This document shows, in pieces, positions 3,001 to 6,000 of a DNA stretch of 64,000 nt. The stretch comes from Escherichia coli (GTDB taxonomy: Bacteria; Pseudomonadota; Gammaproteobacteria; Enterobacterales; Enterobacteriaceae), in the NCBI RefSeq assembly GCF_051903065.1, contig NZ_CP178438.1, one strand, 5' to 3'. Position 1 is the stretch's first letter; each line of letters starts with the position of its first letter. The position numbers are program-made.

Positions 3001-6000
3001 AATGAAGCTGTACTTTGGATTCTATCTCTTCCGGGCGGTATTGCTCTTGCATGGCAGCCAGTGGTCCTGTTTTCATTACGGCTACAAAAGTAGCGTTAGA
3101 GGTGGTTTTTCAGATCCGCATAGCATAGCCCAAACGTCCGCGTCAAAACAGCCTTTCGCGCACTCGACGTTGAAATGATGCCCGGATTATTCATACATTA
3201 ATTTACAGAGTTTGTGGGCGTATTAGCAAAGCAAGGAACAAAGAACGTCTATTATTATAGTCAGTTAACGACCCGGGAGATGAAACGATGAACAAGGTTG
3301 CTCAATATTACCGTGAACTGGTTGCGTCACTGAGCGAACGCCTGCGCAATGGCGAACGTGATATCGACGCACTGGTGGAACAGGCGCGCGAGCGCGTAAT
3401 AAAAACAGGGGAGTTAACGCGAACCGAGGTCGATGAGCTGACGCGAGCTGTCAGACGTGACCTGGAAGAGTTCGCCATGAGCTATGAAGAGAGCCTGAAA
3501 GAAGAATCTGACAGCGTCTTTATGCGGGTGATTAAAGAAAGCTTGTGGCAAGAGCTGGCAGACATCACCGATAAAACGCAGCTTGAATGGCGCGAAGTTT
3601 TCCAGGACCTCAATCATCATGGGGTTTATCACAGCGGAGAAGTGGTCGGGCTGGGAAATCTGGTCTGCGAGAAATGTCACTTCCATCTCCCGATCTACAC
3701 ACCGGAAGTGCTGACGCTATGCCCGAAATGTGGTCATGACCAGTTCCAGAGACGCCCGTTTGAGCCGTAATAGTCTGATTTCGCACAGCAATAAAGAGAA
3801 TATGGGCCGAATGAAATTCCCCGGCCCTTGTTTTTATCTCTACAGTAAATCTTCAGTCTCACGAATTTCCTGACTGACATCTCTGGTTCCGGATGACTGA
3901 ACTTTACGATACAGGTCGAGAGCCTGTCGGAGATCGACAGGTCTTCCTTCTCCGTAGTGATACATAATGGCCAGGTTATACCAGGCAGTGGCGTCATTGC
4001 ATTCAGCGGCTTTCGTAAACCATTCAAAGGCAGCCTGATAATCTTTCTCAACGCCTTGTCCGTGTTTATACATATAACCGATGTTGACGTAAGCGCCGAC
4101 GCTCCCCTGAGCGGCAGCCTTCAGATACCAGTACATCGCTTGCTTATAGTCCTGGTCCACCCCTTCGCCAGCGTTATAATCCCATGCAATTTGAAACTGA
4201 GCATGCCGATTACCCTGCTGTGCGCTTTTCAAATACCAGAATGCGGCGAGTGTCTCGTTTTGAGCAACGCCTTTTCCGTCTTCATAAAGATCGGCCAGAT
4301 TGTTTTGCGCGTCACTATGGCCTTGTAATGCAGCTTGTTTGTACCAGAAAAATGCCAGCGTATAGTCTTGTGCGATTCCGTTGCCATTTCTGTACATCCA
4401 CCCAAGATTATTTTGCGCATAAGACATTCCGCTCTCCGCGGCTATCTGATACCAGGCAACCGCTTCTTTATAGTTGGGGTCTTCTCCACGATCCAGTATC
4501 CAGCCAAGGGCGTTGGAAGCGAAAGTATGGCCTTGTAGGGCAGCTTTTTTCAGCCAGAAGATGGCTTGCTCATTATCTTTATGACGGCTTTTATCCTCGG
4601 TATACTTTTGCCCTAAGGAATACTGTGCTTCACAATGACCTTGCTCAGCGGCCAGCTTCAGCCAGTAAAAGGCCTTTTCGTCGTCCGGAGAGTCAATTGC
4701 GCTATCGCGATTATAATAAAACCCAACAATATATTGAGCCTCACTATCGCCTTGTTCAGCACGTTCGATAATCTCATCTATTGACAAATTATCGCAGCAA
4801 CTTGACGTAAAAATCATTATCATTTCCTTATGGTTGCAGATAAAGCATATTATATTTTTATGTGTTCCGTTTTTGCGTAAGTCTTATTTTATGCGTATTA
4901 TGTTGTGTCAGAAAAGTATAAATAAATGAGCCTCGTAATGTAGTTTACATTCATTAAATGAATGTTTAAGGATAAATTATATGGACATGGAGTCGCAAAA
5001 AATATTGTTTGCACTTTCCACTCCGATGGAAATACGCAATGAATGCTGTTTACCTTCGCATTCATCCCCCAAAATGTATTTAGGTACATGCTTTTTTGAC
5101 CTTTCTTCCTCCTGGGGAATTGATGACCGTGATGACCTGCTGCGCACAATTCACCGAATGATCGATAACGGTCATGCCGCGCGGTTGGCAGGGTTTTATC
5201 ACCGCTGGTTTCGTTATTCTCCATGTGAATGGCGTGACTATCTTGCTGAATTAAATGAGCAAGGTCAGGCTTATGCGCAATTTGTCGCCAGCACAGCCGA
5301 ATGCTGTGGTGAGGGAGGAATTAAAGCATGGGATTATGTCCGGATGGGTTTTTTAAGTCGAATGGGCGTACTTAATAACTGGTTGAGTGAAGAAGAAAGT
5401 CTATGGATCCAGTCGCGTATTCATCTACGGGCTCTACGTTATTATAGTAACTGGCGGCAATACTTTGCCGGTTATACCTTTGGTCGGCAATATTGGCAGT
5501 CTCCCGAAGATGATAATCTGCCTTTATTACGTGAATTCTTAGCGCGTAAAGAATACGACGATTCCGGCAATGATATGTTTTATCAATTATTTGCCAGTGA
5601 CGATGCGTATTACCCTACCTTGTCCTGGCAACCATTGGCTTACTATTCTGCATGCCCGGAAACGCTTAAGGATATGAGCGACCTATGAAAAATTGCTGGA
5701 AGATCCTCAACATAGAGGAAACGACTGACGTCGATATTATCCGCCGCGCTTATCTGGCGCTGTTACCGTCCTTTCATCCAGAAACCGATCCGCAGGGTTT
5801 TAAACAACTTCGTCAGGCGTATGAGGAGGCGCTACGGATTGCGCAGTCGCCTGCTAAATCTGTTTGGCAACCAGAAGAATATGAGGTAGCAGAACATGAA
5901 ATTCTGCTCGCCTTTCGCGCGTTACTTGCCTCTGATAGCGAACGTTTTCTGCCCTCCGCCTGGCAGCGATTCATTCAGCAATTAAATTATTGCTCGATGG

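What the first reader, a model, noticed from the sequence alone, without database searches (positions are those of the whole stretch)
4947..4965. Perfect 19-bp palindrome 16 bp upstream of ybeR
ACATTCATT-A-AATGAATGT is a perfect inverted repeat in the AT-rich divergent ybeQ|ybeR promoter region, positioned like an operator for a dimeric regulator. The matching region before ybeU has only a weaker GTTAAT-N14-ATTAAC repeat, so the two module copies may be regulated differently.
Basis: seen in the sequence. Interest (0 to 1): 0.45.

Follow-up and report, generated by a model that had tools for sequence, protein, structure and literature searches.

The report
Conserved palindrome in the ybeR leader
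The perfect 19-bp AT-rich palindrome just upstream of the E. coli ybeR-djlB co-chaperone operon is real and has stayed self-complementary across the genus Escherichia through matched changes on both arms, which fits a small stem-loop in the mRNA leader better than a regulator-binding site, but its function is untested and it is a modest, ordinary kind of element.

Summary
ACATTCATT-A-AATGAATGT lies at 4947-4965, and 15 nt separate it from the ybeR ATG (4981). It ends 2 nt before the Shine-Dalgarno AAGGA (4968-4972). Sequence alone is not significant: 0.38 such repeats are expected per 64 kb.

The comparative evidence is stronger:
- Every Escherichia allele found keeps the arms complementary.
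- The pair can be T:A or C:G at two positions, with G.T intermediates.
- The centre base takes all four values.
- On the + strand, 119 of 120 stem cells pair across 15 distinct sequences.

What is conserved is complementarity, not base identity, so base pairing is favoured over recognition by a dimeric protein. The best-conserved promoter-like hexamers lie upstream, which puts the element inside a roughly 73-nt ybeR leader. My best reading (about 0.45) is an 8-bp, 3-nt-loop RNA hairpin next to the ribosome-binding site.

Points against this reading:
- The hairpin is weak (-5.5 kcal/mol) and does not dominate predicted folds in several alleles.
- I found no start-site data.
- The preference for the + strand is not significant.

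An operator for an unknown regulator (about 0.25) and a palindrome kept perfect by mutation alone (about 0.2) remain open. No Rfam family, known transcription-factor motif, second copy or publication matches.

The parts
4947..4965 (.). Perfect 19-bp palindrome ACATTCATT-A-AATGAATGT (9+1+9)
   Evidence: Conserved in every Escherichia ybeR locus examined.
4947..4954 (+). 5' half of the proposed RNA stem (8 bp): ACAUUCAU
   Evidence: Fold of the 19-mer gives ((((((((...)))))))) at -5.5 kcal/mol, z -3.85.
4955..4957 (+). Proposed 3-nt loop UAA. The centre base 4956 is A here, T in K-12, G in REL606-type alleles and C in O157:H7.
4958..4965 (+). 3' half of the proposed stem: AUGAAUGU. It also reads as a mini-ORF, ATG AAT GTT TAA (4958-4969).
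   Evidence: The right arm GTGAATAT(TTAAG) is also kept in a more distant homologous leader (L010) that lacks the left arm.
4968..4972 (+). Shine-Dalgarno AAGGA of ybeR. It starts 2 nt after the palindrome and lies 8 nt before the ATG.
   Evidence: TTTAAGGAT is invariant in all 16 aligned sequences.
4981..5688 (+). ybeR (DUF1266), first gene of ybeR-djlB
4873..4901 (+). Best conserved sigma-70-like hexamers for ybeR: TTGCGT-17-TATTAT (8 of 12). Predicted TSS about 4908. This is an inference, not mapped.
   Evidence: The block 4866-4927 is nearly invariant across six Escherichia lineages. The tool's own scan found nothing at 9 of 12 or better.
4883..4911 (-). ybeQ promoter hexamers proposed from RpoD genomic SELEX (K-12 CTGACG-17-AATAAG; here CTGACA-17-AATAAG)
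   Evidence: PMC3946193, located in the window sequence.
4928..4946 (+). Hypervariable stretch directly upstream of the palindrome
   Evidence: 15 of 20 columns vary among six lineages, against 56% of fourfold-degenerate sites in ybeR.
3840..4817 (-). ybeQ (Sel1/TPR-like repeat protein), the divergent neighbour

Best explanation
The palindrome is transcribed as part of a roughly 73-nt ybeR-djlB leader. There it forms a short AU-rich stem-loop: 8 bp (4947-4954 with 4958-4965) and a 3-nt loop (4955-4957). The stem ends two nucleotides before the Shine-Dalgarno sequence.

Shown: the sequence, its perfect complementarity, and the maintenance of pairing across Escherichia through one-sided G.U changes and two-sided compensatory changes.

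Inferred: that it acts as RNA, and what it does. The most likely role is to set how efficiently ybeR-djlB is translated, or how long its mRNA lasts, in one of two ways:
- It keeps the AU-rich region next to the ribosome-binding site in a defined fold. The left arm (UUCAU) can otherwise pair with the SD (GGAU) or with the AUGGA of the start codon.
- It shields the leader from single-strand-specific RNases.

The element is confined to Escherichia. It is missing from the paralogous ybeU leader and from the homologous leaders of more distant enterobacteria.
For: 1. Complementarity is conserved, not sequence. In 15 distinct Escherichia sequences, 119 of 120 stem cells pair on the + strand.
   - Pair 28-44 is UA:11, CG:3, UG:1. 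Pair 34-38 is UA:10, UG:3, CG:1.
   - Partners slid by 1-3 columns pair in only 26-51% of cells.
   - 4 of 500 shuffles reach the observed pairing and covariation.
2. Two lineages resolved the same ancestral T.G pair in different ways: T:A in E. coli and E. fergusonii, C:G in Escherichia sp. MOD1-EC7003. The window allele carries C:G where the other alleles have T:A or, in E1V33, T.G.
3. By my parsimony count, 8 of 9 stem substitutions keep pairing and all are transitions. Half of the variable fourfold-degenerate columns in ybeR include transversions. The one break (E105/F2_81, C.A) is at the loop-closing pair.
4. One-sided changes are G.U on the + strand in 7 cells and on the minus strand in 1 cell.
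5. The loop centre is unconstrained: A, T, G and C all occur.
6. Position is fixed relative to an invariant SD, and the sequence directly upstream evolves at neutral-like rates.
7. The best conserved promoter-like hexamers lie upstream, so the element would be transcribed.
8. The isolated hairpin folds at -5.5 kcal/mol, z -3.85. In leader context its pair probability is 0.6-0.9 in the window, type-2, O157, E1V33 and MOD1 alleles.
Against: - The hairpin is weak. In leader context its predicted probability is only 0.02-0.39 in the K-12, E. fergusonii, E. whittamii and L052 alleles. Competing folds lie within 0.3-0.8 kcal/mol.
- I could find no transcription start site for ybeR. The operon is H-NS-bound and DjlB is below detection in proteomics.
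- The strand asymmetry rests on about 5 events against 1 (binomial about 0.1).
- Only two pairs covary. The tool warns that related sequences can beat the shuffles without any structure.
- The core ATTCA/TGAAT is almost invariant, which would also suit sequence-specific protein recognition.
- The left arm is absent from the homologous leader of L010 and is degenerate in Salmonella.
- No Rfam family matches, and no 3' end is reported in the leader.
Confidence: 0.45

Rival explanations
1. The palindrome is a DNA operator for a homodimeric regulator. A still-unidentified transcription factor binds the two half-sites (core ATTCA-N5-TGAAT). It would act either as a roadblock at about +49 of ybeR or as an upstream activator or anti-silencer at about -80 of the divergent ybeQ promoter.
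For: - Perfect dyad symmetry with an unconstrained central base, as in 9-1-9 operators.
- The 5-bp core of each arm is invariant in 6 lineages. P(0 of 10 columns variable) = 3e-4 against the fourfold-site rate.
- The variable positions are symmetric (2 and 8 in both arms).
- The RNA hairpin is thermodynamically marginal.
- The spacer is an H-NS and RNA polymerase SELEX target, where anti-silencing factors often act.
- Weak look-alikes exist upstream of yjfI and in the ynfD|ynfE spacer.
Against: - A protein does not need exact complementarity, yet the alleles that dominate E. coli genomes are perfect palindromes. Different lineages also fixed different bases at the same pair (T:A against C:G).
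- No known motif fits.
- No transcription-factor gene lies in the cluster.
- No further copy with up to 3 mismatches exists in 64 kb, and none in the ybeT|ybeU spacer or elsewhere in the cluster's intergenic DNA.
- No near-perfect second copy exists in 5,426 E. coli genomes.
- No binding is reported in the papers searched.
Confidence: 0.25
2. The palindrome has no dedicated function. It arose by chance in AT-rich spacer DNA and is kept perfect by a mutational mechanism: intrastrand template switching at quasipalindromes copies one arm from the other and can invert the centre. The pattern of conservation reflects overlapping constraints such as the ribosome-binding region and H-NS or promoter DNA.
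For: - One such repeat per 64 kb is not beyond chance.
- The palindrome is no better conserved than the rest of the spacer: 7 of 19 columns vary, against about 33% overall.
- The right arm is older than the palindrome. It is kept in L010 without a left arm.
- Three of the changes are perfecting events, which template switching would produce in one step.
- The centre alleles form complementary pairs (A/T and G/C), as inversion would give.
- The whole cluster is dispensable: about 30% of complete E. coli genomes lack all or part of it.
Against: - Template switching gives Watson-Crick complements, not the G.T states seen in five sequences.
- Neutral decay should also produce transversions and A.C mismatches, yet 8 of 9 events preserve pairing. 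My estimate is P of about 0.002-0.01 with the transversion share seen at neutral sites, and about 0.1 if only transitions are allowed.
- The adjacent 19 nt have diverged at neutral-like rates while the arms have not.
- The four principal alleles differ from one another only at the centre base and pair 2 within the stem-loop and are almost free of private variants: about 26 of about 3,800 genomes.
Confidence: 0.2
3. The base pairing matters on the other strand or in DNA. One version is a 5'-terminal hairpin on a minus-strand transcript that starts at about 4969 from the consensus TATAAT at 4981-4976 and reads towards ybeQ. The other is a cruciform extruded in the negatively supercoiled DNA between the divergent promoters.
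For: - A perfect TATAAT lies on the minus strand at 4981..4976. That would place the hairpin 4 nt from the 5' end of the transcript, the geometry of stabilising 5' stem-loops.
- The palindrome folds equally well on either strand in this allele.
- AT-rich perfect palindromes are the ones most prone to cruciform extrusion (general knowledge).
Against: - On the minus strand 7 cells become A.C mismatches: 94.2% paired against 99.2%.
- The -35 for that promoter is poor, 2 of 6.
- 9-10-bp arms are short for stable cruciforms.
- There is no experimental support.
Confidence: 0.06
4. [quoted passage not shown]
For: - The reverse complement of window 4956-4966 is AACATTCATTT, identical to an 11-mer listed as an NsrR motif at c0233 in CFT073 ChIP-seq (PMC5320621).
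- With a crude matrix built from 22 published sites, it is the second-best half-site in the 64-kb window. The best is 115 bp away at 5071.
Against: - The two halves are arranged 9-1-9 or 10-1-10, not 11-1-11.
- The half-site score collapses in other alleles: 13.6 bits here, 11.4 in K-12, 7.5 in type-2 and O157, 5.9-6.9 in the cryptic lineages. The centre base that supplies the final T is free.
- ybeQ/ybeR is not among the reported targets.
Confidence: 0.03

Closest known systems
Stem-loops in bacterial 5' untranslated regions next to the ribosome-binding site (for example the ompA leader hairpins that protect mRNA, or hairpin translational operators such as in the thrS leader). Recalled from general knowledge.
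   Same: A short hairpin in a leader, immediately 5' of an accessible Shine-Dalgarno sequence, with pairing maintained by compensatory change.
   Different: Much weaker (all A-U but one or two pairs, -5.5 kcal/mol). It is not at the predicted 5' end. No partner protein or RNase dependence is known, and transcription through it is inferred only.
RNA thermometers of the fourU/ROSE type upstream of heat-shock and chaperone genes. Recalled from general knowledge.
   Same: A low-stability AU-rich hairpin in the leader of an operon that encodes a chaperone component (DjlB, a J-domain partner of the Hsp70 HscC).
   Different: Here the SD is outside the hairpin and is predicted to be mostly unpaired (0.7-0.9 in the window and K-12 alleles). 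The defining SD sequestration is therefore not met. Only an alternative, non-conserved fold pairs the left arm with the SD.
Palindromic operators of homodimeric repressors with an odd centre (the 19-bp 9-1-9 Fur box; the 23-bp 11-1-11 NsrR site)
   Same: Length, perfect dyad, free central base, AT-richness, and location in a divergent regulatory spacer. The half-site is identical to one published NsrR 11-mer.
   Different: No sequence match to the Fur box. Spacing is wrong for NsrR and the score is not conserved. No cognate factor, no regulon, and complementarity rather than base identity is conserved.
Quasipalindrome template-switch hot spots in E. coli. Recalled from general knowledge.
   Same: Arms that change in concert, perfecting of mismatched pairs, and centre alleles that are each other's complements.
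   Different: G.T intermediates persist in several lineages. No A.C states or transversions have accumulated, which suggests selection on top of any mutational bias.

Membership tests
Cis-acting RNA stem-loop in an mRNA leader | The two arms can pair on the transcribed strand with a loop of at least 3 nt | tested here: met
   8 bp plus a 3-nt loop, -5.5 kcal/mol, z -3.85.
Cis-acting RNA stem-loop in an mRNA leader | Pairing is maintained in relatives by compensatory and G.U changes | tested here: met
   99.2% of 120 cells are paired. Two pairs have changes on both sides and two more have one-sided G.U. Slid controls give 26-51%. 4 of 500 shuffles reach the observed value. The sample is small and its sequences are related, so support is moderate.
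Cis-acting RNA stem-loop in an mRNA leader | The element lies within a transcript (TSS upstream) | tested here: inconclusive
   Only predicted hexamers at 4873-4901. The tool's scan found none at its threshold. No start-site entry was found in the supplements I could read.
Cis-acting RNA stem-loop in an mRNA leader | The structure is predicted to form in its native context | tested here: inconclusive
   Pair probability is 0.6-0.9 in five alleles but 0.02-0.39 in K-12, E. fergusonii, E. whittamii and L052.
Cis-acting RNA stem-loop in an mRNA leader | Mutating the stem changes expression, and compensatory mutation restores it | not testable with these tools
   Needs reporter assays.
Any curated RNA family (Rfam 15) | Match to a covariance model at or near the gathering score | tested here: not met
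   Only three chance-level hits (E 3.5-5.2, far below gathering) in 4700-5200.
RNA thermometer (fourU/ROSE-like) | The SD or start codon is sequestered in the temperature-labile helix | tested here: not met
   The SD lies 2 nt 3' of the stem. Its unpaired probability is 0.84-0.88 in the window allele.
Intrinsic terminator / attenuator | A G+C-rich stem followed by a U tract | tested here: not met
   The tool's scan found none. The stem has 1-2 G-C pairs and is followed by UUUAAGG. No Term-seq 3' end is listed in the leader.
Operator of a dimeric transcription factor | An inverted repeat of two half-sites | tested here: met
Operator of a dimeric transcription factor | It overlaps or adjoins core promoter elements or a known activator position | tested here: inconclusive
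   About +39 to +57 from the predicted ybeR start and about -80 from the proposed ybeQ start. All starts are predicted.
Operator of a dimeric transcription factor | An identified cognate protein binds it | not testable with these tools
   No report in the searchable literature. Only RpoD holoenzyme and H-NS are recorded for the spacer.
Operator of a dimeric transcription factor | Further sites of the same motif exist at other promoters (a regulon) | tested here: inconclusive
   None in the window with up to 3 mismatches. None in the intergenic DNA of the cluster. Two 18-of-20 look-alikes, upstream of yjfI and in ynfD|ynfE, are of borderline significance. A full-genome matrix scan was not possible.
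NsrR (Rrf2) binding site | An 11-1-11 inverted repeat of AAGATGCATTT-like halves | tested here: not met
   The spacing is 9-1-9 or 10-1-10. The best 23-mer scores 6.5 bits in the window allele, against 11.9-31.8 for the published sites.
NsrR (Rrf2) binding site | A single 11-bp half-site that is conserved | tested here: not met
   13.6 bits here, falling to 5.9-7.5 bits in other alleles.
Repeated or mobile palindromic element (REP/MITE-like) | Many copies per genome | tested here: not met
   Single locus per genome.

The most novel reading that the evidence does not exclude
The leader is a two-state translational switch for an orphan Hsp70 co-chaperone operon. The left arm (AUUCAU) is an anti-RBS/anti-start sequence: it can pair with the SD (GGAU) or with the AUGGA of the start codon. 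The right arm (AUGAAU) mimics the start region and acts as a decoy that keeps the left arm occupied. Temperature, a small RNA, a protein or co-transcriptional folding could then decide between the ON state (palindromic hairpin) and the OFF state (left arm on the SD or AUG). The alternative folds lie within 0.3-0.8 kcal/mol of each other in three alleles.
Probability: 0.08. Interest if true: 0.55.

Novelty: new member of a known kind. Interest (0 to 1): 0.3.

Why it matters
HscC, DjlB and DjlC form the least understood Hsp70 system of E. coli. According to the review read, HscC and both J-proteins are below proteomic detection in exponential growth, and their only reported phenotype is cadmium sensitivity. 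Nothing is known about how the ybeR-djlB unit is switched on.

This is a discrete, conserved cis-element at its ribosome-binding site that the duplicated ybeU-djlC unit lacks. It is a concrete handle for finding that control and for explaining why the two paralogous modules are kept. The natural alleles amount to a ready-made compensatory-mutation series: T:A against C:G, G.U intermediates, one C.A break, and all four loop bases.

Beyond this locus the finding is modest. Small leader hairpins and palindromic operators are both familiar kinds of element.

Tried and rejected
1. Start-site data. ybeR was not named in the supplements of the Cappable-seq and dRNA-seq papers. No supplement is held for the operon-architecture paper. 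Searches by coordinate found nothing for E. coli. The transcript's 5' end therefore remains a prediction.
2. Terminator or attenuator. Rejected: no terminator-like site and no Term-seq 3' end in the leader.
3. Rfam. No family.
4. Known operator motifs recalled from memory do not fit in sequence or half-site order. This covers Fur, ArgR (TGAAT-N4-ATTCA, the opposite order), MetR (TGAA-N5-TTCA, the opposite order), Cra, TyrR, LexA, CRP/FNR, SlyA, PhoP, OmpR, AcrR and IHF. This is an inference from memory, not a database scan.
5. NsrR. Examined because of a half-site identity. Rejected on spacing and on lack of conservation.
6. Homology of the right arm with the ybeU start codon, suggested by alignment A1. 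This was a misalignment: the YbeR and YbeU proteins align from residue 1 without gaps.
7. Independent hairpins at the same place in other genera.
   - L067, upstream of a ybeU-like gene, has a hairpin with three U.G pairs.
   - Salmonella has only a degenerate version (4 A-U plus 4 G.U).
   - L010, L064, L065 and L066 have none.
   - The covariance model recovered the homologous leader of L010 (33.7 bits) without the stem.
8. The protein-pattern scan of genome contigs returned only 5 loci. Deeper sampling of species had to come from protein look-ups and one metagenome DNA scan.
9. Centre-base hypervariability as a hot spot. It is not exceptional: 8 of 75 fourfold-degenerate sites also show three alleles in the same six lineages.
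Full report
THE OBSERVATION

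The window carries the E. coli leuS-ybeL-ybeQ|ybeR-djlB-ybeT|ybeU-djlC-hscC region. It is not K-12: over 4700-5100 it is 95.0% identical to BW25113, and over 6.9 kb it is 100% identical to strain 23CRST027.

At 4947-4965 the sequence is ACATTCATT-A-AATGAATGT, a perfect 9+1+9 inverted repeat. Its last base is 16 bp upstream of the ybeR ATG (4981), and it ends 2 nt before the Shine-Dalgarno AAGGA (4968-4972). It lies in a 157-nt spacer of 26.8% G+C.

A repeat of this quality is not in itself beyond chance. Dinucleotide shuffles of the window give 0.38 per 64 kb, and 30% of shuffles have at least one. For this spacer alone P = 0.004. No other copy with up to three mismatches exists in the window. 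YbeR and YbeU align end to end at 59% identity, so the two leaders are comparable.

COMPARATIVE EVIDENCE

I collected the orthologous spacer from several sources:
- K-12, O157:H7, REL606, ATCC 8739 and other E. coli;
- E. fergusonii and E. whittamii;
- two Escherichia genomes without species names (E1V33, MOD1-EC7003);
- 40 metagenome contigs, found with a pattern anchored only on the SD and start-codon region, not on the stem.

Every one of them has the element. The alleles are:

| Allele | Sequence |
|---|---|
| K-12 | AATATTCATT-T-AATGAATATT |
| O157:H7 | as K-12, with centre C |
| REL606 type | as K-12, with centre G |
| this window | ACATTCATT-A-AATGAATGT |
| E. fergusonii | ATATTCATT-A-AATGAATAT |
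| E1V33 | ATATTCATT-G-AGTGAATGT |
| MOD1-EC7003 | GTATTCACT-T-AGTGAATAT |
| E. whittamii | ATATTCATT-T-TGTGAATAT |
| L038/L052 | ATATTTATT-T-AGTGAATAT |
| LH50-c | GCATTCATT-A-AATGAATGT |
| E105/F2_81 | ACATTCACT-A-AATGAATGT |

Pair 2 is therefore T:A, C:G or T.G. Pair 8 is T.G (also the state in the outgroups), T:A, C:G or, once, C.A. Pairs 1 and 6 each show a G.T. The centre takes all four bases.

On the 16-sequence alignment, 119 of 120 stem cells form a standard pair on the + strand. Two pairs have changes on both sides. Partners slid by 1-3 columns pair in 26-51% of cells, and 4 of 500 shuffles reach the observed values. On the minus strand 113 of 120 cells pair.

By my own parsimony count there were nine substitutions in the stem. 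All were transitions, and eight preserved pairing. At fourfold-degenerate sites of ybeR in six of these lineages, 56% of columns vary, and half of the variable columns include transversions. With that spectrum, the chance that so many changes preserve pairing is roughly 0.002-0.01. It is about 0.1 if only transitions are allowed. This is an inference from few events.

The 19 nt directly upstream (4928-4946) vary in 15 of 20 columns. The palindrome varies in 7 of 19, and the SD block in 2 of 14.

POPULATION FREQUENCIES

The 401-nt spacer region is present in 3,846 of 5,426 complete E. coli genomes. Counts by allele:
- the K-12 allele is exact in 2,912;
- the centre-C allele in about 317;
- the centre-G allele in 445;
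- the window allele in only 83.

Only about 26 genomes carry private variants. The remaining genomes lack one module or the whole ybeQ-djlC block.

WHAT THE PATTERN MEANS

A homodimeric protein reads the same bases in both half-sites. It has no need for the two arms to be exact complements, and it would favour the same base in every lineage. Here the identity of the pair differs between lineages while complementarity is kept. An ancestral T.G was resolved to T:A in one lineage and to C:G in another. That is the classical signature of base pairing.

The one-sided changes are G.U on the + strand in seven cells and on the minus strand in one. This leans towards the ybeR sense strand, but the underlying events are too few for significance.

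WHERE THE ELEMENT SITS IN THE TRANSCRIPT

The tool's promoter scan finds nothing in 4700-5100 at its threshold. A relaxed scan gives TTGCGT-17-TATTAT at 4873-4901 as the best + strand candidate. It lies in a block that is nearly invariant across Escherichia. It interleaves with the ybeQ promoter hexamers proposed from RpoD genomic SELEX, in a paper that also flags H-NS binding in this spacer (PMC3946193).

If that promoter is used, the palindrome is at about +39 to +57 of a 73-nt leader. I could not find mapped start sites. Term-seq data list no 3' end in the leader.

FOLDING

The 19-mer folds into an 8-bp stem with a 3-nt loop at -5.5 kcal/mol, z -3.85. In leader context the stem has a predicted pair probability of:
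- 0.8-0.9 in the window, centre-G and MOD1 alleles;
- 0.6-0.9 in the O157 and E1V33 alleles;
- only 0.02-0.39 in the K-12, E. fergusonii, E. whittamii and L052 alleles.

The SD is predicted mostly unpaired in the window and K-12 alleles. In alternative folds the left arm pairs with the SD or with the AUGGA of the start codon. These lie within 0.3-0.8 kcal/mol of the palindromic fold. Rfam has no matching family.

BEYOND ESCHERICHIA

- The covariance model built from the alignment recovers a homologous leader in L010, whose YbeR is 68% identical. There the right arm and SD are kept but the left arm is not.
- Salmonella has a degenerate version, TATTTGTG-G-TGTGAATA, at the same position.
- An unidentified enterobacterial contig (L067) has TATATTCA-TAT-TGGGTATG upstream of a ybeU-like gene.
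- Three other relatives have nothing.

The palindrome was therefore completed within the Escherichia lineage, on an older right arm.

THE OPERATOR HYPOTHESIS

No transcription-factor gene lies in the cluster. No motif I know fits. No paper in the library mentions the sequence or any binding at ybeQ|ybeR beyond RNA polymerase and H-NS.

The one concrete lead was NsrR. The reverse complement of 4956-4966 is identical to a published NsrR 11-mer. With a crude matrix it is the second-best half-site in the window. Against this, the halves are 2 bp too close for the 11-1-11 site. The score also falls from 13.6 to 5.9-7.5 bits in other alleles, because the free centre base supplies a key T. ybeR is not among the reported targets.

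A short-query BLAST of all complete E. coli genomes found no second near-perfect copy. It did find two 18-of-20 look-alikes, upstream of yjfI and in the ynfD|ynfE spacer. The yjfI leader shares 35 of 43 positions with the ybeR leader (covariance-model score 20.4 bits, E about 0.1). I rate that as borderline.

VERDICT

The interpretation as a protein operator is possible but is not what the evidence favours.

| Reading | Probability |
|---|---|
| Small + strand stem-loop in the ybeR-djlB leader beside the ribosome-binding site, tuning translation or mRNA stability | about 0.45 |
| Operator for an unknown regulator | about 0.25 |
| Mutationally maintained palindrome without a dedicated role | about 0.2 |
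| Minus-strand or cruciform versions | about 0.06 |
| NsrR site | about 0.03 |

The element appears undescribed. It belongs to familiar kinds, and it sits in a dispensable, H-NS-bound cluster (HscC and both J-proteins are below proteomic detection in exponential growth), so I score interest at 0.3.

Noticed in passing
L063 9897-9939 (E. coli BW25113, rlmB|yjfI spacer); also L062 151-193: The yjfI leader resembles the ybeR leader. GCAAATATTCATTTTATTAATATTTAAACTTAATCTATATGGA shares 35 of 43 positions with it, including an 18-of-20 match to the K-12 palindrome. The local alignment scores 46, against 18.8 +/- 2.6 in shuffles. The covariance-model score is 20.4 bits. nsrR lies 3.5 kb upstream. After correction for a genome-wide search the significance is borderline.
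   Followed up: partly
L061 151-173 (E. coli WL297, ynfE|ynfD spacer): A second look-alike, AATATTTATATAATGAATATTTA, matches the K-12 palindrome region at 21 of 23 positions.
   Followed up: no
window 3200-10100: The ybeQ-ybeR-djlB-ybeT-ybeU-djlC block is structurally polymorphic in E. coli. 3,686 of 5,426 complete genomes have the full block. Others cover 59-66% of it, with one of the two paralogous modules lost (for example BL21). Others keep only ybeL (for example O127:H6). EC1515 has an IS1 at the 3' end of djlB. ybeQ is annotated as a pseudogene in O157:H7 F8492, REL606 and PEC41.
   Followed up: partly
window 4956-4966 (-) and 5071-5081 (+): The two best matches in the whole 64-kb window to a crude NsrR half-site matrix lie 115 bp apart at the 5' end of ybeR: AACATTCATTT and AAAATGTATTT. 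The score at the palindrome is not conserved across alleles.
   Followed up: partly
window 4928-4946: The 19 nt between the conserved TATAAATAAA block and the palindrome are the most variable part of the spacer. 15 of 20 columns vary among six Escherichia lineages, at or above the rate of fourfold-degenerate sites.
   Followed up: partly
window 4950-4954 with 4970-4973 or 4981-4985: The left arm UUCAU can pair with the SD (GGAU) or with AUGGA at the start codon. Such alternative folds lie within 0.3-0.8 kcal/mol of the palindromic hairpin in the K-12, E. fergusonii and TW11681 alleles.
   Followed up: partly
window 4958-4969: The right arm reads as a three-codon mini-ORF, ATG AAT GTT TAA, whose stop abuts the SD. 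The A/G variation at arm position 2 keeps a start codon (ATG or GTG) in all lineages. In Salmonella the equivalent GTG is in frame with ybeR. No SD precedes it, so it is probably incidental.
   Followed up: no
window 4970-4978: GGATAAATT overlaps the SD and resembles the high-affinity H-NS motif TCGATAAATT (recalled from memory). The RpoD SELEX paper flags H-NS binding in this spacer.
   Followed up: no
window 4976-4981 (-) and 4849-4854 (-): Two consensus TATAAT hexamers lie on the minus strand. One overlaps the ybeR start codon and would start a transcript 4 nt before the palindrome. The other is about 30 nt upstream of the ybeQ start codon.
   Followed up: no
window 7750-7775: In the ybeU leader, GTTAAT-N14-ATTAAC encloses the SD AAGGGA. 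The predicted fold of 7735-7792 is weak (-5.3 kcal/mol, z -1.3). SlyA over-expression is reported to raise ybeT 4.1-fold and ybeU-djlC 2.8-fold; ybeQ/ybeR are not listed.
   Followed up: partly
window 18453-18471; 32837-32860; 23471-23496; 37093-37118; 37838-37861: These are other perfect inverted repeats in the window. ATGCTGAAG-G-CTTCAGCAT is the only other 9+1+9 repeat. The rest are several G+C-rich repeats with 10-11-bp arms that may be terminators (two, at 23471 and 37093, are flanked by A/T runs). None was examined.
   Followed up: no
MG1655 coordinates 675562, 675677, 675984 (+), antisense to ybeQ (about window 3800-4250): Term-seq supplements list 3' ends on the + strand inside ybeQ. 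These are read-through from ybeL, one of them in a second, differential table (probably Rho-dependent). Antisense transcription therefore enters ybeQ.
   Followed up: no
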